Below, in pieces: positions 1-55,299 of a stretch of DNA of 64,000 nt; position 1 is the first letter of the stretch, and every line of letters begins with the position of its first letter. Position numbers and translations under genes: made by a program. Below the pieces are notes generated by a model, which was not told the origin of the DNA, ran no database searches, and saw only the letters and a list, made by a program, of their open reading frames with translations. Source of the stretch: Bacteroidales bacterium (GTDB taxonomy: Bacteria > Bacteroidota > Bacteroidia > Bacteroidales > WCHB1-69); assembly GCA_045534635.1 (NCBI GenBank), contig JAZSKB010000004.1, positions 617-64,616 on the forward strand, written 5' to 3'.

Positions 1-180
1 GAAATAATAACGTTATACAATTATGACCCTGTTGGCAATGTTACCTATGTATATAGTGAATATCCATGGAAAGGAGCTTTTGATGAATCTTTCTGTTATG
101 ACGAAGCAGACCAACTTACTAATGCTGTTAATGACAAAGATTTTTACAACTTGCAGACACCGAAATCAACCCACAAATAG
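1..180 (+). CDS. RHS/YD-repeat protein, 3' end (partial; 5' end outside window)
   Basis: Frame 1 is open from the window edge to TAG 178-180. The translation EIITLYNYDPVGNVTYVYSE...FCYDEADQLTNAV shows two YD-repeat units. Confidence 0.5.
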   Translation, partial: EIITLYNYDPVGNVTYVYSEYPWKGAFDESFCYDEADQLTNAVNDKDFYNLQTPKSTHK

Positions 181-5883: not shown

Positions 5884-6531
5884 TTAAAATTTGCTAACTT
5901 TTGGAGCATTCCCAAGAGGAATATGAATAATATATTTTTCGTTGAAATAGGTATCAGAAAACCAATTTTGAATAGGATATTTTATTGTTTTTCGAGGAAC
6001 TTGTTGCAATTCTTGGGTTAAATCTCCTCCTTTGAGATAAAGAATTCCATTGGCAATGGTATTAAAAGAATCTTTACACACACGATGATGAATCCATTTA
6101 AAGAAAATAGGTAATGTTGTAACGGCTCGACTTACAATAAAATCATATTCACAATTTAATTCTTCGGCTCGAATTTGTGTGCATTCTACGTTGTTTAGTT
6201 GCAAACTATCTACAACGGCTTGAGCAACTTTTATTTTTTTTCCTATAGAATCAACTAAATGAAAATGGGCAAAAGGAAACATAATCGCTAAAGGAATTCC
6301 AGGAAAACCTCCTCCTGTGCCGACATCTAAAATTGTAGTTTGATTTTTGAATTGTAATAATTTGGCGATACTCAAAGAGTGTAAAATATGATTAGTGGAA
6401 ATATTTTCAATATCTTTGCGAGAAATAACGTTAATTTGTGCATTCCAAAATTTATACAAATCAGGCAAAGCATTGAATTGTTCCTGTTGTTGTTGAGTCA
6501 ATGTCGGAAAATGTTGTTCTATGATATTCAT
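5884..6531 (-). CDS. rsmG: 16S rRNA m7G527 methyltransferase
   Basis: GTGGGFPGIPLAI SAM motif; 215 aa. Confidence 0.9.
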   Translation of the reverse strand: MNIIEQHFPTLTQQQQEQFNALPDLYKFWNAQINVISRKDIENISTNHILHSLSIAKLLQFKNQTTILDVGTGGGFPGIPLAIMFPFAHFHLVDSIGKKIKVAQAVVDSLQLNNVECTQIRAEELNCEYDFIVSRAVTTLPIFFKWIHHRVCKDSFNTIANGILYLKGGDLTQELQQVPRKTIKYPIQNWFSDTYFNEKYIIHIPLGNAPKVSKF

Positions 6532-6545
6532 TTATTTAGAATTTG

Positions 6546-6976
6546 TTTGCAAAAGTATCATTTTTTTCTATAAAATTATAGGTTTTAAATTCAACTTAGA
6601 AAGAATAGGTTCAATAAAAATATCACCAATAACACCGAAAAAAGCAACATAAATATTTCTTGCTGTAAATCAGCATATTGAAGAAATTTAGAAAAGTTTT
6701 AAATTTCACAAAAAATTTTTTTCATTTTTTTATCAAAAACCGACCACTTTGGCACAATATTTGTTGTGTATAAAATGTTGAATGATAACAATATGCTAAA
6801 AAATGAGAGTTTATAAAAAACATACAAAAAACACTTATAACTGACTGATAGACAGTAGTATTAGTGGATGTTTTATAGTGTATTGTTTTGAGGCTCGTTA
6901 TTACAAGCTACCTGCATTAAATTTAAGTTATAACATCAACTTATAAAGTTATAAAAAAAGTGTTATCTTTGTAAAA
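6546..6976 (-). repeat. Dispersed intergenic repeat, copy A (full length, both promoter arms)
   Basis: Hand-aligned to copies B-G. 6546-6628 is identical to the reverse complement of 36458-36540. It contains -7 boxes at 6550-6557 (minus strand, toward rsmG) and 6964-6971 (plus strand, toward the hydrolase). Confidence 0.9.
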
Positions 6977-7000
6977 TCATTTTTATAATTTTATATAGTG

Positions 7001-22562: not shown

Positions 22563-22793
22563 TTTTATACAATTAGTTATTTATTAACGATTGTTTTGCT
22601 TATTATTGTATTTATAAAAAGAAATATTCTATAAAAATTTCATTTTTTGTATTTTTGGAAAAATCAATATCCTGTGAATTTTGATAAATAACTTCAATAC
22701 TTATTTGTTCTTTTTTTTGTTTTGTTTTGTACTTCACATTTTAGGGAAAGAAGCAAAACTTCAAGTTTTTTTCATAATTACAAAAAATTCTTT

Positions 22794-23240
22794 TTAGTTC
22801 ATTTTGAAAAAATAAAAAATTAGTTTAATTGTTTCTTCTTTCTTCTTTCTTAAATAGTGAAAATATGATATTCCTATTAATCCATAATAAAAAAATGGTT
22901 TACAAGGATATATATAATAAAAAATATTTGATTGCTGTTCTTTTGTATAAAAAGAAGATGTTCCTAGAAAATATCTTTCTGGTAAATTAAAGAAATTTAT
23001 AATAATAGGTAATAAAAGAATACTTAATAATACCCATAATTTTATTGGAGGAAGTTTCTTCATATAAAGAAACAACAACAATAATCCAATTATAAGCAAT
23101 AAAAGCAAAATAAGAACTAAATAAATATTTGCTTTTAATAGTAACAATAAACTCGTAATTAAATCACATAAAATATTACAACTTTTAAAAAAAAGAATAT
23201 AAAATAAAATACCATAATAAAAATCAAGATTCTTTTCCAT
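22794..23240 (-). CDS. Hypothetical membrane protein
   Basis: 148-aa Leu/Ile-rich ORF with no recognisable motif. Very AT-rich. Confidence 0.4.
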   Translation of the reverse strand: MEKNLDFYYGILFYILFFKSCNILCDLITSLLLLLKANIYLVLILLLLLIIGLLLLFLYMKKLPPIKLWVLLSILLLPIIINFFNLPERYFLGTSSFYTKEQQSNIFYYIYPCKPFFYYGLIGISYFHYLRKKKEETIKLIFYFFKMN

Positions 23241-23305
23241 TTTTATATAAGATTAAAATAAACGACACTTTTTTTTATTTTGATTTCTTAATTTAATTAT
23301 TTGTT

Positions 23306-23398
23306 CCTCAAAACAATACACTAAAAACAGTCCATAACACTACTGTTTATCAGATAGTTATAATCGATTTTTTTGATATGTTTTTTATAAACTGTCAT
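23306..23398 (+). repeat. Dispersed intergenic repeat, copy D (segment 1 only)
   Basis: CCTCAAAACAATACACTAAAAA...CTACTGTTTATCAGATAG...TTTTTTATAAACTGTCAT aligns to segment 1 of copies A, B, F and G. Confidence 0.85.
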
Positions 23399-23415
23399 AT
23401 ATCGTTATAAAGAAA

Positions 23416-29295: not shown

Positions 29296-29303
29296 CAAAA
29301 ATA
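29296..29303 (-). promoter_or_regulatory. -7 promoter box TATTTTTG (A2M)
   Basis: TAnnTTTG match on the minus strand, 22 nt upstream of ATG 29274. Confidence 0.55.
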
Positions 29304-29542
29304 TCATTTTTTACAGAAACCGTAAAATGTTTTGCAAATTTTTTCTTGAAAGCATATCTCCTTTACATGTTTACAACCCACCAAAATCAAAAATATCATA
29401 CTTTTTAGAATAAAATATTACATGGTTTGGTAGTGAATTAGAAATTTATAAATTATATTACGTTTTTTTCGCATATAAATACCTTCAATGCGGGTGGATT
29501 GTATATGAGTAAGATGTGAGCCATGGTTTTTCGTTCATTAAC

Positions 29543-29887
29543 GGGTCTCTGCTGGTAAATGTAGGAGACTTGTTATTACGAGCCTCAAAACAATACACTA
29601 TAAAATATCCATTAATACTACTGTCTATCAGGTAGTTATAAGTATTTTTTGTGTGTTTTTTATAAACTCTCATTTTTTAGCATATTGTTATTATTCAACG
29701 TTTTATACACAACAAATATTGTACCAAAGTGGTCAATTTTTGATAAAAAAATGAAAAAAATTTTTTGTAAAGTTTAAAACTTTCCTGAATTTATTTAATA
29801 TGTTGATTTTCAGTAAGAAAGGTTTGTGTTGTTTTTTCAAGTGTTCATGGTGTGTACTATTAGGTTTCTTTTGATTATAAATTCAAC
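29543..29887 (+). repeat. Dispersed intergenic repeat, copy B (segments 1-3, diverged 4)
   Basis: Aligns with the reverse complement of copy A along its length, and with copy G over about 190 nt (about 11 substitutions plus one 3-nt indel by hand count). Confidence 0.9.
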
Positions 29888-29894
29888 AAAAAAA

Positions 29895-30494
29895 TCATTT
29901 AATATTACAATCGCAAGAAGGAGAAAATAAAATTTTTACATTTGGCAACAATTCTTGCATTGCTTTTTTATGACTATCGTGCATATTGACAACACGTAAA
30001 TCTATCGTTTTCAAATTATTATCAAGTGCAGAAATTTCTTGTGGTAATGTGATAATCAATGTTGACCACATATCTAAGTATTTCAAATTTGTAAGATTTT
30101 TTATCTCTTTAGGCAATTCTGCAATATTGTTTCTATTGATTATTAGTTGTTGCAATTGAGACAATTTCCCAATTTTTGCAGGCAATTCTTTCAAACGATT
30201 GTTGGACAAATCTAAATATGTAAGATTTTGTAATTCAAATATTTGTTCAGGAATTTCTTTAAGATTTACTCCTGAAAGAATCAATTGTTGTAAATTAGGA
30301 AAATTTAGTATTTTTTGAGAAAAATCATTTGGCAATTTACGTTTAAATTTCAAACGGTAAACCTTTTCACAAGCAATAGTATCTGTTTGTTCAAACGAAA
30401 AAAATAAAGTTTGTTGAGCCAAAGAAGCACTATCTAACACTTGAGCCTTTGCAACAAAAGGCAATAAAAACAAAAGCAAAAAACATTTTTTCAT
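29895..30494 (-). CDS. Leucine-rich-repeat protein, secreted
   Basis: Signal peptide MKKCFLLLFLLPFVAKAQ. About 23-residue LRRs (LTYLDLSNNRLKELP, LQQLIINRNNIAELP). The start is trimmed past the promoter box. Confidence 0.8.
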   Translation of the reverse strand: MKKCFLLLFLLPFVAKAQVLDSASLAQQTLFFSFEQTDTIACEKVYRLKFKRKLPNDFSQKILNFPNLQQLILSGVNLKEIPEQIFELQNLTYLDLSNNRLKELPAKIGKLSQLQQLIINRNNIAELPKEIKNLTNLKYLDMWSTLIITLPQEISALDNNLKTIDLRVVNMHDSHKKAMQELLPNVKILFSPSCDCNIK

Positions 30495-36300: not shown

Positions 36301-36541
36301 TGTTAATCAATGTTTATATATAGCAAGAATCGTGCCAAAGTGGTCGATTTTTGATAAAAATAAAAAAAAATTTTTTGTAAAATTTAAAATTTTCCTAAAC
36401 TTTCACAATATGTTGATTTTCAGCAAGAAAAGTTTGTATTGCTTTTTTCGGTATTACTGGTGATATTTTTATTGAACCTATTCTTTCTAAGTTGAATTTA
36501 AAACCTATAATTTTATAGAAAAAAATGATACTTTTGCAAAG
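36301..36541 (+). repeat. Dispersed intergenic repeat, copy C (segments 2-4 with left promoter arm)
   Basis: 36458-36540 is 83/83 identical to the reverse complement of 6546-6628. It ends in the -7 box TACTTTTG (36529-36536), which faces kdsA. Confidence 0.9.
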
Positions 36542-36628: not shown

Positions 36629-37447
36629 GTGGAAAGCAAAGATTTATTTAAGAGTATTATTGAGCAATGTCAAGAAAATTTTTTTCTCATAGCCGGTCCT
36701 TGTGTCGTAGAAGACGAAACAATGCCAATGAAGATAGCCTCTCAATTGAAAGAGATTACCACAGCATTGAATATTCCATTTATTTTTAAGGCATCGTATC
36801 GAAAAGCCAATCGTTCGAGTGTAAATTCTTTTACTGGTATCGGAGACGAAAAAGCACTTAAATTAATAGCGGAAGTAAGACAAAAATTGCAGGTTCCCGT
36901 TTTGACAGATATTCATAGTGCTCAAGAAGCAAAAATGGCAGCAGATTATGTTGATGTGTTGCAAATACCTGCTTTTTTGTGCCGACAAACCGATTTGTTG
37001 GTATCCGCGGCACAAACAGGAAAAATAGTCAATGTGAAAAAAGGACAATTTTTATCTCCTGAAGCAATGAAATTTGTCGTAGAAAAAGTACGTTCTTCTG
37101 GAAATGATAAAGTAATGATAGTAGAAAGAGGAACAATGTTTGGATACCAAGATTTGGTTGTAGATTTTCGAGGAGCAACCATAATGCGAGAAAATAATTG
37201 TCCTATAGTGATAGATGTAACGCATTCATTGCAACAACCTAATCAAAGTTCTGGCGTTAGCGGAGGAAGAAGAAATTTAATAGCAACTATTGCCAAAGCA
37301 GGAATTGCTGTTGGGTTCGATGGCGTTTTTATGGAAACACATTATGATGTAACTCATGCAAAATCAGACGCTTCTAATATGATTCCTCTTGATGAAGTAA
37401 AAGCCTTGTTAGAACAACTTGTTAAAATACGAAAAGCTATTTCTTAA
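36629..37447 (+). CDS. kdsA: 3-deoxy-8-phosphooctulonate synthase
   Basis: LIAGPCVVE and FKASYRKANRSS motifs; 272 aa; GTG start. Confidence 0.9.
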   Translation: MESKDLFKSIIEQCQENFFLIAGPCVVEDETMPMKIASQLKEITTALNIPFIFKASYRKANRSSVNSFTGIGDEKALKLIAEVRQKLQVPVLTDIHSAQEAKMAADYVDVLQIPAFLCRQTDLLVSAAQTGKIVNVKKGQFLSPEAMKFVVEKVRSSGNDKVMIVERGTMFGYQDLVVDFRGATIMRENNCPIVIDVTHSLQQPNQSSGVSGGRRNLIATIAKAGIAVGFDGVFMETHYDVTHAKSDASNMIPLDEVKALLEQLVKIRKAIS

Positions 37448-46348: not shown

Positions 46349-46461
46349 TATTTTGCAAAGATAACACTTTTTTATAACTTTCTAAGTTGAATTTTTAATC
46401 GCACTCCAAGTAGTCAATTTTTGATAAAAAAATGAAAAAAATTTTTTTTGCAAAGTTTTTG
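46349..46461 (+). repeat. Dispersed intergenic repeat, copy E (right promoter arm plus part of segment 2; segment 1 absent)
   Basis: The reverse complement of 46349-46390 aligns to 6936-6976 with 2 mismatches and 1 indel. 46400-46458 aligns to segment 2. It contains the hflX -7 box (46356-46363, minus strand). Confidence 0.85.
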
Positions 46462-48788: not shown

Positions 48789-48881
48789 AAATTAATAAGC
48801 AATTTTGAAATAAAAATTCCTGATATGACTTCAACCTAAAAAAATATTGAACAATAAACAATAAGAATATAAGTAAAAATG

Positions 48882-48972
48882 ATAGTTCAAAAAAATGACA
48901 CAAAAAAATTGCTTGTAACTACCTGATATACAGTAGCATTATAGGCTTTTTATAGTGTATTGTTTTGAGGCT
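48882..48972 (-). repeat. Dispersed intergenic repeat, copy F (segment 1 only)
   Basis: ...CTACCTGATATACAGTAG...TTTTATAGTGTATTGTTTTGAGGCTG aligns to segment 1 of copy A in the same strand sense. Confidence 0.85.
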
Positions 48973-49125
48973 GTTTTTTTTCATGAACTTTTGGATGAAT
49001 ATTTAAATTACTTCGCAAAAGGTAAGATTACAAATTCATCACCAAAAATTGAGAAAGTATATTATCAAAATCAAGCTTTGCAAAACAAAGAACTTCCACC
49101 TCGTAATGGGAATGACTACCAATAA
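48937..49125 (+). pseudogene. Start-less gene remnant running out of repeat F
   Basis: Open frame with no ATG: ...FIVYCFEAVFFHELLDEYLNYFAKGKITNSSPKIEKVYYQNQALQNKELPPRNGNDYQ*. The first ~12 codons are repeat-derived. Confidence 0.3.
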
Positions 49126-49154
49126 ATTCCAATAACATATAAAATATTAACATT

Positions 49155-49622
49155 ATGAAAATAATTATTAAAAACATGTGTGTCTTTATCGTACTATTAT
49201 ATAATATAAATATATCACTATGTCAGAAAAATATGGATTGTTATTTGCATTTCCAAGATAATCCTTCAGATAGATTTTATATTTCAAATTCAACATTTGT
49301 TACATCTATAGATAGTTGTTTTTGTAGTAAAGATACACTATTTGTTATATTGAAATCACTTGTTAAGATTAAGGTATCATGTCAAGAAAGTACCATTCAA
49401 ATTCGCGACTACAAATCAGATAGCATAGAATATTACCATGCATTTAGGAAAAATAAAAGTAAATATAAGTATAGTTTTTCTTTACTGGATTGTTATTCAA
49501 TGAAAAGTATTTCATACATCATAATTAAAAACTATTACTGCATTCGATATTTTAAGCATAAAAGGAGGAATCTCTATATTCAGGTTGCATCCGAAATTTT
49601 TTCAGATACTAAAAAGTTTTAA
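49155..49622 (+). CDS. Hypothetical small secreted protein
   Basis: 155 aa with an N-terminal hydrophobic signal; Cys- and Tyr-rich; extremely AT-rich. I recognise no motif. Confidence 0.45.
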   Translation: MKIIIKNMCVFIVLLYNINISLCQKNMDCYLHFQDNPSDRFYISNSTFVTSIDSCFCSKDTLFVILKSLVKIKVSCQESTIQIRDYKSDSIEYYHAFRKNKSKYKYSFSLLDCYSMKSISYIIIKNYYCIRYFKHKRRNLYIQVASEIFSDTKKF

Positions 49623-52563: not shown

Positions 52564-52671
52564 TTACCAAGTCCTAAAAAATATTACATTTTTTAGGACT
52601 TGCTGTTTTAAAAATATCAAACAAAAAACTATATTGGTAAAATTACCCACAACATCATAATTGTATAACAT
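52564..52671 (-). pseudogene. RHS/YD-repeat gene fragment
   Basis: The reverse complement of 52636-52681 matches window positions 1-45 at 38/45 nt. The fragment translates (EII)MLYNYDVVGNFTNI... and then runs into the hairpin. Confidence 0.6.
52569..52601. terminator. 14-bp perfect hairpin (bidirectional terminator candidate)
   Basis: AAGTCCTAAAAAAT-ATTAC-ATTTTTTAGGACTT, 40 nt after the M49-like gene stop. Confidence 0.65.
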
Positions 52672-52708
52672 TATTATTTCGTTGTTAATTCTCCTAATTT
52701 CTATTCTG

Positions 52709-52716
52709 CAAAGATA
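52709..52716 (-). promoter_or_regulatory. Orphan -7 promoter box TATCTTTG facing the YD fragment
   Basis: The minus strand reads AAAAAAAGTGTTATCTTTG, the same extended sequence as the hflX and hydrolase promoters. No intact minus-strand gene lies downstream. Confidence 0.5.
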
Positions 52717-52728
52717 ACACTTTTTTTG

Positions 52729-52736
52729 TACTTTTG
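52729..52736 (+). promoter_or_regulatory. -7 promoter box TACTTTTG (island operon)
   Basis: TAnnTTTG match 58 nt upstream of ATG 52794, back-to-back with the orphan box. Confidence 0.55.
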
Positions 52737-52793
52737 CATTTGGATTTCAAAATGAAATCACTTATAGAGTCTAACATTTAAAAATTTGTAATT

Positions 52794-54853: not shown

Positions 54854-55093
54854 ATGAAAAGAGTTGTTTTATTTTTTGTCTGCGTAACTTTGTTATCGTC
54901 TTGCCGCCAAAGCAAATCGGATATCGTGAAAGATTATATAGATGACATAAATAGTTATGACTCTAAAAAATTGAATCAGTTACTAACTGATAATTTTATG
55001 TATTATGGCAAAGATACTTTAAACAAAACTATCTATATGACAATTATGGATTATGAAAAAAATATTGGTCAAAAAGCGAGTCTCTACTTGTAA
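54854..55093 (+). CDS. Lipoprotein, truncated NTF2/SnoaL-like domain
   Basis: Lipobox LLSSC. At 79 aa it is too short for a full NTF2-like fold. The last 5 codons and the stop lie inside repeat copy G. Confidence 0.45.
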   Translation: MKRVVLFFVCVTLLSSCRQSKSDIVKDYIDDINSYDSKKLNQLLTDNFMYYGKDTLNKTIYMTIMDYEKNIGQKASLYL

Positions 55094-55299
55094 AAACCAG
55101 TGCTTTATAATAACGAGCCTCAAAACAACACACTATAAAATAGCTATTAAAACTACTGTCTATCAGGAAGTTATAAGCAATTTTTTTGGTGTGTTTTTTA
55201 TAAACTCTCATTTTTTAGCATATTGTTGTTATTCAACATTTTATACACAACAAATATTGTTCCAAAGTGGTCAATTTTTGATAAAAAAGTGAAAAAAAT
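55078..55299 (+). repeat. Dispersed intergenic repeat, copy G (segments 1-2)
   Basis: Aligns to copy B 29543-29760. Its start overlaps the 3' end of the preceding ORF. Confidence 0.9.

What the first reader, a model, noticed from the sequence alone, without database searches (positions are those of the whole stretch)
29571..29673. Segment 1 behaves as an independent ~95-nt module with a conserved hairpin and a decaying small ORF
Segment 1 occurs alone (D, F), nested (A, B, G) or absent (E). All five copies keep an imperfect palindrome: CTACTGTCTATCAGGTAG (29618-35) in B, with counterparts at 6841-58, 23340-57, 48919-36 and 55153-70. It can fold as a 6-bp stem with one bulge and a 5-nt loop. 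The substitutions I see (A-U to G-U, C-G to U-G) remain pairing-compatible in three variants, but copy G has a U-U mismatch. On the opposite strand, a reading frame starting MRVYKKHTKN...LIDSS...YFIVYCFEAR is intact in B (62 aa, 29485-29673) and G (55 aa, ATG 55211). In those two copies a 3-nt indel preserves the frame and FTSRD is shared further on. The frame is broken by a stop in A (codon 14) and D (codon 26) and by frameshifts in F. It is undecided whether this is a DNA or RNA hairpin element, or a dying micro-gene family.
Basis: partly seen in the sequence, partly recalled or inferred. Interest (0 to 1): 0.55.

Follow-up and report, generated by a model that had tools for sequence, protein, structure and literature searches.

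The report
Decayed RHS toxin cassette stubs
The repeated ~100-base "segment 1" is the worn-down front end of toxin–immunity gene cassettes of the RHS type, scattered between housekeeping genes of an uncultured, AT-rich Bacteroidales bacterium, and there is no sign that it acts as a hairpin element or encodes a small protein.

Summary
Five copies of segment 1 exist at the stated coordinates, each with the 18-nt palindrome, and the ORFs, stops and frameshifts are as described. The interpretation changes.

On the ORF strand, each copy has 76 nt of unrelated sequence beginning at the ATG. This is followed by TGTATTGTTTTGAGG, where homology to the 3' tip of RHS/YD-repeat toxin genes begins (…MYYFEARYY…SRDPL…NNPxxxxDPxG). 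The extent of RHS tip retained varies:
- D and F keep about 5 codons.
- A keeps about 15, G about 19 and B about 30.
- A metagenomic copy reaches DPTG and passes the curated TIGR03696 cutoff.

In F the same frame runs on into the last 50 codons of a toxin domain. The intact 155-aa gene downstream is 52% identical to the gene that follows that toxin in another bacterium, so it is a candidate orphan immunity gene.

The hairpin shows no compensatory changes and is thermodynamically marginal. The ORF shows no codon-position bias, and 3 of 9 copies are broken. Between strains, segment 1 diverges as fast as unique spacer DNA.

Verdict: these are neutral relics of orphan rhs-CT/immunity cassettes that share a ~300-nt non-coding leader. 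The dispersed, leader-linked arrangement is unusual, and how the copies spread is unknown.

The parts
29598..29673 (-). Copy B, 76-nt non-RHS part of segment 1. It runs from the ATG at 29673 and contains the palindrome at 29618-29635, which encodes YLIDSS.
   Evidence: It has no detectable similarity to RHS sequence upstream of MYYFEARYY.
29509..29597 (-). Copy B, decayed RHS-tip remnant (VYCFEARNNKSPTFTSRDPLMNEKPWLTSYSY). The ORF runs on to its stop at 29485.
   Evidence: 72% nt identity over 89 nt to the RHS tip of L095. 70% aa identity to P0004, E 3e-15.
29681..29852 (-). Copy B, non-coding leader (segments 2 and 3), upstream of the ATG in ORF orientation
   Evidence: 88% identical to A over 295 nt and 82% to E
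6546..6925 (+). Copy A, the fullest composite in the window. Its parts are: a leader carrying an outward TAnnTTTG -7 box facing rsmG (segment 3 and segment 2); segment 1 (ATG 6803, stop at codon 14); and an RHS-derived remnant at 6879-6923 (FEARYYKLPA...).
23301..23404 (-). Copy D, segment 1 alone (ATG 23398, stop at codon 26). Only 15 nt of RHS-derived sequence are kept (23306-23320). It lies between the stop of the alpha-2-macroglobulin gene and a 148-aa membrane-protein gene.
   Evidence: Logan contigs of near-identical strains end inside it.
48857..48972 (+). Copy F, about 20 nt of segment 2 plus segment 1 (ATG 48879, frameshifted). The RHS-derived junction is at 48956-48970.
48971..49125 (+). 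Copy F, the last ~50 codons of an RHS-linked C-terminal toxin domain (AVFFHELLDEYLNYF...PRNGNDYQ*), in the same frame as ...FIVYCFEA. The deletion junction lies at a shared GCT.
   Evidence: There are 34 hits; the best is 71% identical (E 3e-15). In 31 of the 34 the match ends within two residues of the hit protein's C-terminus, and each of the six sequences retrieved either carries a recognisable RHS tip or starts downstream of where it would lie.
49155..49622 (+). Intact 155-aa gene with a signal-peptide-like N-terminus; candidate orphan immunity gene of the deleted toxin
   Evidence: 52% identity, E 1e-45, to the 139-aa gene immediately downstream of toxin P0011 in L100 and L101
55077..55299 (-). 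Copy G: RHS-tip remnant at 55077-55132 (FEARYYKALVFTSRDSL), segment 1 at 55133-55211, and segment 2 to 55299. The remnant overlaps the 3' end of a truncated 79-aa lipoprotein ORF on the + strand.
   Evidence: Logan contigs break at 55268-55274.
36313..36540 (-). Copy E, leader only (segments 2 and 3, no segment 1). It shares with A the promoter-proximal stretch, here upstream of kdsA.
   Evidence: 89-90% identity to A over 185-229 nt
46408..46458 (-). Copy H, a fragment of segment 2 only. It belongs to the same sub-family as the L099 copy.

Best explanation
Segment 1 is the front part of a chimeric unit that was formed once and then copied.

Read on the ORF strand, the unit has three parts in order:
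1. A ~300-nt non-coding leader (segment 3, then segment 2).
2. 76 nt of unrelated sequence that supplies an ATG.
3. From TGTAYTRYTTTGAGG onward, the last ~45 codons of an RHS/YD-repeat toxin core (MYYFEARYY...SRDPL...NNPxxxxDPxG). In the ancestral state this was followed by a C-terminal toxin domain and its immunity gene.

This is the layout of an orphan rhs-CT/immunity cassette. The window's copies are such cassettes after deletional decay from the toxin side. L014 keeps the whole tip, B about 30 codons, G about 19, A about 15, and D and F about 5. E and H keep only the leader.

In F a microhomology (GCT) deletion removed most of the toxin but left its last 50 codons. The immunity gene stayed intact and presumably still protects against that toxin (inferred).

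The 18-nt palindrome is a by-product of the sequence that reads YLIDSS. The short ORFs are what remains of the toxin genes' 5' ends. Neither shows signs of selection.

What the copies plausibly do now is passive, and this is inferred:
- They provide dispersed homology for gene conversion and rearrangement.
- In A and E, an outward-facing promoter box sits in front of rsmG and kdsA.

How the cassettes reached separate intergenic sites is not shown.
For: **RHS origin**
- P0003, the ORF of copy L014, hits TIGR03696 at E 4e-10 and 40 bits, above the 32.5 cutoff. Residues 27-71 match profile positions 30-75 of 76.
- The L014 DNA is almost identical over the ~136 nt from TGTACTAC to the DPTG codons (87.7% over the whole 162-column alignment) to the tip of a bona fide RHS-tip gene in L095, which has the same ~31% GC.
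- B is 70% identical to P0004 and G 62% identical to P0006. P0004, P0006 and P0022 pass TIGR03696.
- Homology starts at the same nucleotide motif in all five window copies. The 76 nt upstream of that motif show no similarity to RHS sequence.

**Toxin and immunity**
- F's in-frame 50-codon tail matches the C-terminal ends of 34 proteins, the best at 71% identity. The six retrieved sequences carry a recognisable RHS tip or start downstream of it.
- The next gene in the window is 52% identical (E 1e-45) to the gene that follows that toxin in L100 and L101.

**No coding constraint on segment 1**
- Substitutions by codon position are 11, 14 and 16 over 31 sites each.
- Non-synonymous to synonymous codon differences run at about 3:1.
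- 3 of 9 copies are disrupted.
- Two searches of 5.8 billion proteins returned only ORFs of 85 aa or less that begin with this leader.

**No structural constraint**
-.

**Neutral rate between strains (window versus L013)**
- Segment 1 2.2%, RHS remnant 2.9%, segment 2 3.5%, segment 3 6.9%.
- Unique spacer 2.3%; third codon positions of the neighbouring gene 1.6%.

**Multicopy, recombining DNA**
- Short-read contigs from many samples end inside the copies.
- The D orthologue has 8 differences within 62 nt, in a strain that is 99.4% identical over 10.5 kb.
Against: - There is no full-length rhs gene, type VI secretion gene, recombinase or transposase anywhere in the 64-kb window. All neighbours are housekeeping genes. 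Known orphan modules lie in tandem behind an rhs gene, so this dispersed arrangement is unexplained.
- No intact example of leader, tip, toxin and immunity together was recovered. The ancestral state is therefore reconstructed, not observed.
- Only F has direct toxin and immunity evidence. The 148-aa gene after D has homologues only in this lineage.
- Only 9-11 copies could be collected, because the rest of the genome is not in the searchable collections. The selection and covariation tests therefore have low power.
- The + strand of segment 1 folds somewhat better than shuffles in every copy tested (z -1.1 to -2.9). A weak structural role cannot be excluded.
Confidence: 0.72

Rival explanations
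1. Segment 1, or the whole leader, is the recognition site of a cassette-moving system. On this view it is an imperfect-palindrome recombination site, comparable to integron attC sites or to the repetitive intergenic sequences of Bacteroidales rAID-1 arrays. A recombinase encoded elsewhere would use it to insert toxin/immunity cassettes at scattered chromosomal sites.
For: - It sits exactly at the 5' boundary of toxin/immunity cassette remnants.
- The + strand of segment 1 can form a ~75-nt imperfect hairpin, with z -2.6 in B and -2.9 in G and negative z in all copies.
- D and F end within 2 nt of each other, at GAGG and GAGGCT.
- The copies are dispersed singly in core-genome spacers, which calls for some insertion mechanism.
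- rAID-1 arrays are reported to have integron-like repeated intergenic sequences (10.1101/471110).
Against: - No recombinase gene lies in 64 kb.
- Copy ends are otherwise variable on both sides.
- There is one covarying pair at most, and 85% of cells pair against 84% in shuffles.
- The consensus fold is only -2.2 kcal/mol.
- The z-scores are inflated because an A-rich half faces a T-rich half.
- No target-site duplication was seen at D by eye, and no orthologous empty site could be recovered.
- The F junction is a microhomology deletion inside the toxin gene, not a site-specific joint.
Confidence: 0.12
2. Segment 1 is a non-autonomous transposable element (a MITE, REP, RPE or IS200/IS605-end-like hairpin repeat). 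It happens to have landed once in an RHS gene and carries flanking RHS sequence along when it moves.
For: - There are five copies in 64 kb.
- Some copies are solo and others nested.
- Variable lengths of the same flank (5 to more than 60 RHS codons) resemble read-through mobilisation of adjacent DNA.
Against: - No terminal inverted repeats or target duplications were found (and inspection of junctions).
- There is no transposase in the window or in the fetched loci of this organism.
- There are no matches in plasmids or phages, in 185,579 species genomes, or in JGI metagenomes.
- The short hairpin is marginal.
- The upstream end also varies: D starts 10 nt before the ATG, F about 20-40 nt before it, and the others include segments 2-3.
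Confidence: 0.08
3. Segment 1 encodes a structured RNA, such as a small RNA, a 5' leader or a terminator hairpin.
For: - On the ORF-sense strand, 97% of stem cells pair, and three stem positions change only to wobble pairs.
- The + strand hairpin is followed by a U-run.
Against: - There are no compensatory double changes.
- About four independent transitions all falling wobble-compatible on one strand has roughly a 1 in 8 chance (my estimate).
- There is no Rfam match, even at E up to 1.
- No terminator-like site is scored.
- The orientation relative to neighbouring genes is inconsistent across copies.
- The divergence rate between strains is neutral.
Confidence: 0.05
4. The ORF MRVYKKHTKN... 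is a functional small protein.
For: - It is intact in B, G, L014 and L098.
- A 3-nt indel preserves the frame.
Against: - The ORF is broken in A, D, F and L099.
- L013's ORF is cut short after the RHS-derived part.
- There is no third-position excess (11, 14, 16).
- Non-synonymous changes dominate at about 3:1.
- The C-terminal halves differ in length because they are RHS remnants of different extent.
- There is no canonical TAnnTTTG promoter upstream (inspection of the sequence).
- Only 10 related ORFs exist among 5.8 billion proteins, all from this lineage or true RHS tips.
Confidence: 0.03

Closest known systems
Orphan rhs-CT/rhsI toxin-immunity modules ('silent cassettes') of Rhs loci (Poole et al. 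2011, PMC3150448; Koskiniemi et al. 2014, PMC3967940)
   Same: - A retained piece of the rhs core 3' end, up to the DPxG motif, often with in-frame stops.
- A following C-terminal toxin sequence.
- A small downstream immunity gene that stays intact.
   Different: - Known orphans lie in tandem directly behind a full-length rhs gene. Here single remnants sit in at least five separate spacers between housekeeping genes.
- Each remnant is fused at the same nucleotide to an unrelated 76-nt ATG-bearing stretch and a ~300-nt shared non-coding leader.
- Most copies have lost the toxin entirely.
Acquired interbacterial defence islands of gut Bacteroidales, especially recombinase-associated rAID-1 arrays (Ross et al., 10.1101/471110)
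   Same: - The host order is Bacteroidales.
- Orphan immunity genes persist, while their toxin genes are missing or reduced to fragments.
- Repeated intergenic sequences lie between cassettes.
   Different: - rAID-1 is a contiguous array next to a XerD-family recombinase.
- Here there is no recombinase and no array in 64 kb.
- The repeat is a long leader of ~87% mean identity rather than a short motif.
Rhs elements of E. coli as rearrangement hot spots (established knowledge; the name is explained in PMC3150448)
   Same: Dispersed RHS-derived homology coincides with synteny differences and with clustered sequence exchange between strains.
   Different: - E. coli Rhs elements are multi-kilobase and largely intact genes.
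- Here only 15-190 nt of RHS sequence survive per site.
- The strain differences seen here could partly be assembly chimeras.
Modular intergenic repeats such as pneumococcal BOX (boxA/B/C) or enterobacterial BIME mosaics (from my own knowledge)
   Same: - A mosaic of sub-segments occurs in different combinations.
- They lie in intergenic spacers and have some hairpin potential.
   Different: - Those repeats have defined sub-unit ends and strong palindromes.
- Here the sub-segment ends vary.
- The pattern fits nested deletion of one ancestral unit that contains recognisable gene debris.

Membership tests
Orphan rhs-CT/rhsI module | Retains a fragment of the rhs core 3' end (TIGR03696 region ending in DPxG) | tested here: met
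   - The L014 copy scores 40 bits against a cutoff of 32.5 and includes NNPVGRIDPTG.
- B is 70% and G 62% identical to RHS tips.
- A keeps about 15 codons, and D and F only 15-17 nt.
Orphan rhs-CT/rhsI module | A C-terminal toxin-coding sequence follows the core fragment | tested here: inconclusive
   This is seen only in F, as the last 50 codons of a toxin family linked to RHS tips. It is absent or unrecognisable in A, B, D and G.
Orphan rhs-CT/rhsI module | A small cognate immunity gene lies immediately downstream | tested here: met
   - For F, the 155-aa gene is 52% identical (E 1e-45) to the gene that follows the homologous toxin in L100 and L101.
- The immunity function itself was not tested.
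- D's 148-aa neighbour is unresolved.
Orphan rhs-CT/rhsI module | Located in tandem downstream of a full-length rhs gene | tested here: not met
   No rhs gene lies next to any copy, and the neighbours are housekeeping genes. The only other RHS sequences are debris at 1-178 and 52630-52747.
MITE / REP / IS200-IS605-end type hairpin repeat | Fixed termini (inverted repeats or subterminal hairpins) with target-site duplication, and a cognate transposase somewhere | tested here: not met
   - The ends vary on both sides.
- No inverted-repeat termini were found.
- No transposase lies in the window or in this organism's fetched loci.
- The rest of the genome could not be searched.
MITE / REP / IS200-IS605-end type hairpin repeat | A stable, conserved stem-loop | tested here: not met
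   - The 18-mer folds at -1.2 to -2.1 kcal/mol.
- The consensus fold is -2.2 kcal/mol with a covariation term of -0.05.
- There are 0 compensatory pairs.
Integron attC / rAID-1 intergenic repeat | Adjacent tyrosine recombinase and a tandem cassette array | tested here: not met
   No recombinase or array lies in the 64-kb window.
Integron attC / rAID-1 intergenic repeat | Structure conserved while sequence varies | tested here: inconclusive
   - The copies are 87% identical on average, so there is little variation to test.
- In the extended fold, 85% of cells pair against 84% in shuffles.
Known RNA family (Rfam 15) | Match to a covariance model | tested here: not met
   Only two tRNAs match in the window. 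Nothing matches at E up to 1 in 29300-29900.
Small protein-coding gene | ORF intact across copies and under purifying selection | tested here: not met
   - 3 of 9 copies are disrupted.
- Changes by codon position are 11, 14 and 16.
- The non-synonymous to synonymous ratio is about 3:1.

The most novel reading that the evidence does not exclude
The ~300-nt leader plus segment 1 is the business end of an undescribed cassette-dissemination system in an AT-rich, uncultured Bacteroidales lineage. On this reading it captures RHS-tip toxin/immunity pairs at a fixed junction. It then plants them singly in core-genome spacers, bringing an outward promoter with it. A recombinase encoded elsewhere would use the imperfect palindrome as its site. 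This would be a dispersed, array-free counterpart of integrons or rAID-1 islands.
Probability: 0.12. Interest if true: 0.65.

Novelty: new variant of a known kind. Interest (0 to 1): 0.35.

Why it matters
It settles an undecided call. A repeat that looked like a hairpin element or a micro-gene family is recognisable gene debris from polymorphic-toxin cassettes.

Three points may interest specialists:
- Orphan RHS cassettes can occur as single, dispersed relics fused to a common non-coding leader, rather than only in arrays behind an rhs gene.
- An apparently intact orphan immunity gene (49155-49622) persists beside a toxin reduced to 50 codons. It pairs with a toxin C-terminal family that has no Pfam or NCBIfam model.
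- Two unrelated housekeeping genes, rsmG and kdsA, share ~185-229 nt of upstream sequence, including the promoter box. Such relics may therefore rewire promoters.

For genome-scan practice, short conserved ORFs in spacers should be checked against RHS/YD core-tip profiles before they are called new genes or RNA elements.

Tried and rejected
**Searches for more copies**
- An exact-pattern scan for segment 1 (CCTCAAAACAAYACACTAWAAA) in 185,579 species genomes found 0 hits. The same scan in JGI metagenomes also found 0. The lineage is not represented there, so a genome-wide copy census was impossible.
- blastn of the composite against plasmids and phages gave no match.
- Rfam at gathering thresholds and at E up to 1 found nothing but tRNAs.
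- The nearest species genomes by PRPP synthetase (at most 76% aa identity, 44.6% GC) carry no copy.

**Searches for orthologous empty sites**
- Exact-protein look-ups for the neighbours of F and D were not on record.
- The look-up that did work returned contigs ending inside the repeat.

**Ideas tested and dropped**
- That the 1,963-aa neighbour is the parent RHS gene: it is an alpha-2-macroglobulin.
- That the genes after D and F are paralogues: they are not.
- That the first 76 nt of segment 1 are diverged RHS sequence: they are no better than shuffles.
- That the shared 'promoter module' (for example 6945-6977, 46368-46398, 52703-52734) shows common descent: it looks like the organism's promoter consensus (A-run plus GTATCTTTGCAAAA), which also occurs at unrelated genes (I18, I20, I21).
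- That clustered differences in D's segment 1 prove conversion from paralogues: this was weakened because a second cluster lies in the adjacent gene.

**Promoter and terminator scans**
- The sigma-70-type scan was uninformative for a Bacteroidota genome.
- The TTTG-N17-23-TAnnTTTG scan placed no site in the repeats.
Full report
**Setting**

The window has about 30% GC. It carries Bacteroidota-type promoter boxes (TAnnTTTG, e.g. GTATCTTTGCAAAA) and encodes only housekeeping functions. These include rsmG, kdsA, lpxD, hflX, prs, nusA, infB, sufB, the mraZ-murE cluster and an alpha-2-macroglobulin. The nearest species genome by PRPP synthetase is an uncultured Bacteroidales MAG at 76% amino-acid identity and 44.6% GC. 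The organism is therefore an unrepresented, AT-rich lineage. Near-identical strains occur in many ENA and Logan metagenome assemblies.

**Checking the observation**

- The 18-nt motif occurs five times at exactly the stated coordinates, against 0.02 expected.
- A profile of segment 1 finds the same five copies (E 1e-26 to 1e-31) and nothing else.
- All copies are intergenic. Seven of the 21 spacers of at least 50 nt carry parts of one composite.
- On the + strand of B the order is: RHS-derived stretch, segment 1, segment 2, segment 3. A, B and G have segment 1 nested. D has it alone. F has it with a little of segment 2. E, H and strain locus L001 have segments 2/3 without it.

**What the ORF strand really encodes**

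A protein search with B's 62-aa ORF found only three relatives. One of them, P0003, comes from a different and fuller copy on a 679-nt metagenome contig (L014). It reads MRVYKNYTKKIAYNYLIDSGVKGCFIVYYFEARYYRAPTFISRDPLMNEKPWLTPYHYCSNNPVGRIDPTG..., and it passes the curated cutoff of NCBIfam TIGR03696, the RHS repeat-associated core domain (40 bits against 32.5, E 4e-10; residues 27-71 match profile positions 30-75 of 76).

A search with P0003 recovered true RHS tips. One example is P0004...IPKYSFNAKELDEETGMYYFEARYYRAPTFISRDPLMNEKPWLTPYHYCSNNPVGRIDPTGMMDD.... Its contig, L095, has 31% GC.

- At the DNA level, L014 and L095 are nearly identical from TGTACTACTTTGAGG to the DPTG codons and unrelated upstream of that point.
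- All five window copies contain this junction motif as TGT[AG]TTGTTTTGAGG.
- The 76 nt between the ATG and the junction show no similarity to RHS sequence, at either the DNA or protein level.
- B's ORF residues 26-58 are 70% identical to P0004. G's residues 30-55 are 62% identical to P0006.

The amount of RHS tip retained forms a series:
- L014 keeps the full tip.
- B keeps about 30 codons.
- G keeps about 19 codons.
- A, and the metagenomic copies L098 and L099, keep about 15 codons (about 45 nt).
- D and F keep about 5 codons.

The FTSRD peptide shared by B and G is part of the RHS motif F(T/I)SRDPL.

**Copy F shows the rest of the cassette**

After ...FIVYCFEA the same frame stays open for 50 codons in 30%-GC DNA: VFFHELLDEYLNYFAKGKITNSSPKIEKVYYQNQALQNKELPPRNGNDYQ*.

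- An exhaustive HMMER search of 1.84 billion representative proteins gave 34 hits. The best is 71% identical (E 3e-15). In 31 of the 34 the match ends within two residues of the hit protein's C-terminus, most of these proteins being 180-360 aa long.
- The six retrieved sequences either carry an RHS tip followed by a ~200-aa domain ending in this motif or start downstream of where the tip would lie. Examples are P0011 (...SVDPLADKYPNLSSYTYCAGNPV...) and P0022 (...YTFTGKEKDTETGYHYFGARYY...DPDG...).
- The junction in F lies at a GCT shared by FEA|R and by (S)A|VFFHELL, so it looks like a microhomology deletion.
- In L100 and L101, from a different Bacteroidota with 38% GC, P0011 lies in a typical orphan toxin/immunity array and is followed by a 139-aa gene.
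- That gene is 52% identical (E 1e-45) to the intact 155-aa gene directly downstream of F, at 49155-49622.

F is therefore an rhs-CT/immunity cassette whose toxin has been deleted and whose putative immunity gene survives. This matches what is described for orphan modules (PMC3150448).

*Hairpin*
- On the + strand every stem change breaks a pair.
- On the ORF-sense strand, 64 of 66 cells pair and three positions change only to wobble pairs, but no pair changes on both sides.
- About four independent transitions all falling wobble-compatible on one strand has roughly a 1 in 8 chance (my estimate).
- The 18-mers fold at -1.2 to -2.1 kcal/mol.
- RNAalifold gives -2.2 kcal/mol with no covariation.
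- A longer ~75-nt fold of the + strand has z -2.6 in B and -2.9 in G, and -1.1 to -1.5 in the others. It pairs an A-rich half with a T-rich half, and 85% of its cells pair against 84% in shuffles.

*Coding*
- Changes by codon position are 11, 14 and 16.
- Non-synonymous codon differences outnumber synonymous ones by about 3:1.
- 3 of 9 copies are disrupted.

*Constraint between strains (window versus L013, 98.7% identical overall)*
- Segment 1 differs by 2.2%, the RHS remnant by 2.9%, segment 2 by 3.5% and segment 3 by 6.9%.
- Unique spacer differs by 2.3%, and third codon positions of the adjacent gene by 1.6%.
- The counts are small, but nothing indicates purifying selection.

**Behaviour as repeated DNA**

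- Logan contigs from nine samples start at 55268-55274, inside segment 2 of G. Four start at 23361-23384, inside segment 1 of D. This is what assembly of multicopy sequence produces.
- Strains differ in what flanks copies B and G (L001, L011, L012). Misassembly at repeats cannot be excluded.
- The D orthologue in a strain 99.4% identical over 10.5 kb has 8 differences within 62 nt of segment 1. A second cluster of differences lies in the neighbouring gene, so this indicates recombination patches rather than proving conversion from paralogues.

**Interpretation**

The simplest account is a single chimeric ancestor made of leader, 76-nt ATG stretch, RHS tip, toxin and immunity gene. Its copies now lie in several core-genome spacers and have been eroded by deletions of different extent. 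Segment 1 looks like an independent module only because it lies in the middle of that unit and survives most often.

What is shown:
- the RHS origin of the sequence from the junction onward;
- the common junction in all copies;
- the toxin tail in F and the conserved pairing of that toxin family with the downstream gene;
- the lack of coding or structural signal in segment 1.

What is inferred:
- the ancestral full cassette;
- immunity function of the 155-aa protein;
- promoter donation to rsmG and kdsA by the leader. A and E share 185-229 nt at 89-90% identity, including a TACTTTTG box;
- a role in rearrangement.

What is unknown is how the copies were dispersed. No recombinase, transposase, rhs gene or type VI secretion gene lies in the window.

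**Comparison with known systems**

It works like, and partly qualifies as, an orphan rhs-CT/rhsI module. However, it fails the feature of lying in tandem behind a full-length rhs gene, and it adds a shared non-coding leader. It recalls the Bacteroidales AID/rAID-1 islands, which combine orphan immunity genes with repeated intergenic sequences (10.1101/471110), but it lacks their array and recombinase. It is not a MITE, REP or IS200/IS605-type element by the features that could be tested, and it matches no Rfam family.

**Verdict**

The copies are relics of RHS toxin cassettes that evolve neutrally. This is a new variant of a known kind, of moderate-to-low interest. A small residual chance remains that the leader and palindrome mark a cassette-dissemination mechanism.

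Noticed in passing
window 1-178 (+) and 52630-52747 (-): Two further pieces of RHS debris from the 5' end of an rhs gene.
- 1-51 reads EIITLYNYDPVGNVTYV. The reverse complement of 52630-52680 reads EIIMLYNYDVVGNFTNI (a YD-repeat motif; 82% nt identity, I9).
- 52680-52747(-) also carries a promoter box plus ATA-GAAATTAGGAGAATTAACAAC. This is about 90% identical to the promoter and start (MEIRRINN) of the RHS-tip gene in L095, with the ATG mutated.
- The Pfam RHS_repeat hit is only E 0.12.
   Followed up: partly
window 6546-6774 versus 36313-36540: The unrelated housekeeping genes rsmG (5884-6531, -) and kdsA (36629-37447, +) share 185-229 nt of upstream sequence at 89-90% identity. This includes the TACTTTTG -7 box, so the repeat may supply their promoter.
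   Followed up: partly
window 54854-55093 (+): A 79-aa ORF with a lipoprotein signal (MKRVVLFFVCVTLLSSC...). It ends inside the RHS-derived part of copy G on the opposite strand, so it looks like a gene truncated when the repeat arrived.
   Followed up: no
window 48971-49622; P0011-P0044; L100 5001-6249: The toxin C-terminal family ending ...VFFHELLDE(Y/F)LN...YYQN.AL.NK.L.PRDG.DHQ has no Pfam model, and in NCBIfam only the RHS core model matches. Its partner family, the 155-aa and 139-aa proteins with a signal peptide, has no Pfam or NCBIfam match for the 155-aa member. Together they form an unannotated toxin/immunity pair.
   Followed up: partly
L095 (836-nt contig, 31% GC): A 'mini-RHS' gene in which the rhs start (MEIRRINNG) is joined after about 20 codons to the core tip and a 27-aa tail. 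It is followed by a 5'-truncated Mob_Pre relaxase ORF (Pfam E 5e-18, profile positions 78-146). This is more gene debris in the same lineage.
   Followed up: partly
window 29385-29429 versus L001 7216-7260: A further 45-nt repeat (AAAAATATCATACTTTTTAGAATAAAATATTACATGGTTTGG, 93% identity). It lies in the 'unique' spacer left of copy B and recurs in a different context in another strain.
   Followed up: no
window 23129-23194 (5' part of the 148-aa gene 22794-23240, -): Among strains 99.4% identical over 10.5 kb, 13 differences cluster in 66 nt (23129-23194) of this membrane-protein gene, and indels lie further on (22845-22851, 22726-22730). The protein has homologues only in this lineage.
   Followed up: partly
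L001 7640-7700; L011 1286-1318; L012 3570-3700: Other strains have different genes next to copies G and B.
- In L001 a 119-aa gene replaces segment 1 upstream of prs.
- In L011 a YitT-family gene replaces the alpha-2-macroglobulin gene.
- In L012 an ABC ATPase gene replaces segment 3 and the LRR gene.

These may be real rearrangements at the repeats or assembly chimeras.
   Followed up: partly
whole window versus L015: The window has ~30% GC, while the closest available relative has 44.6% GC and only 76% PRPP-synthetase identity. Together with the abundant gene debris, this hints at a host-restricted or otherwise drifting lineage.
   Followed up: no
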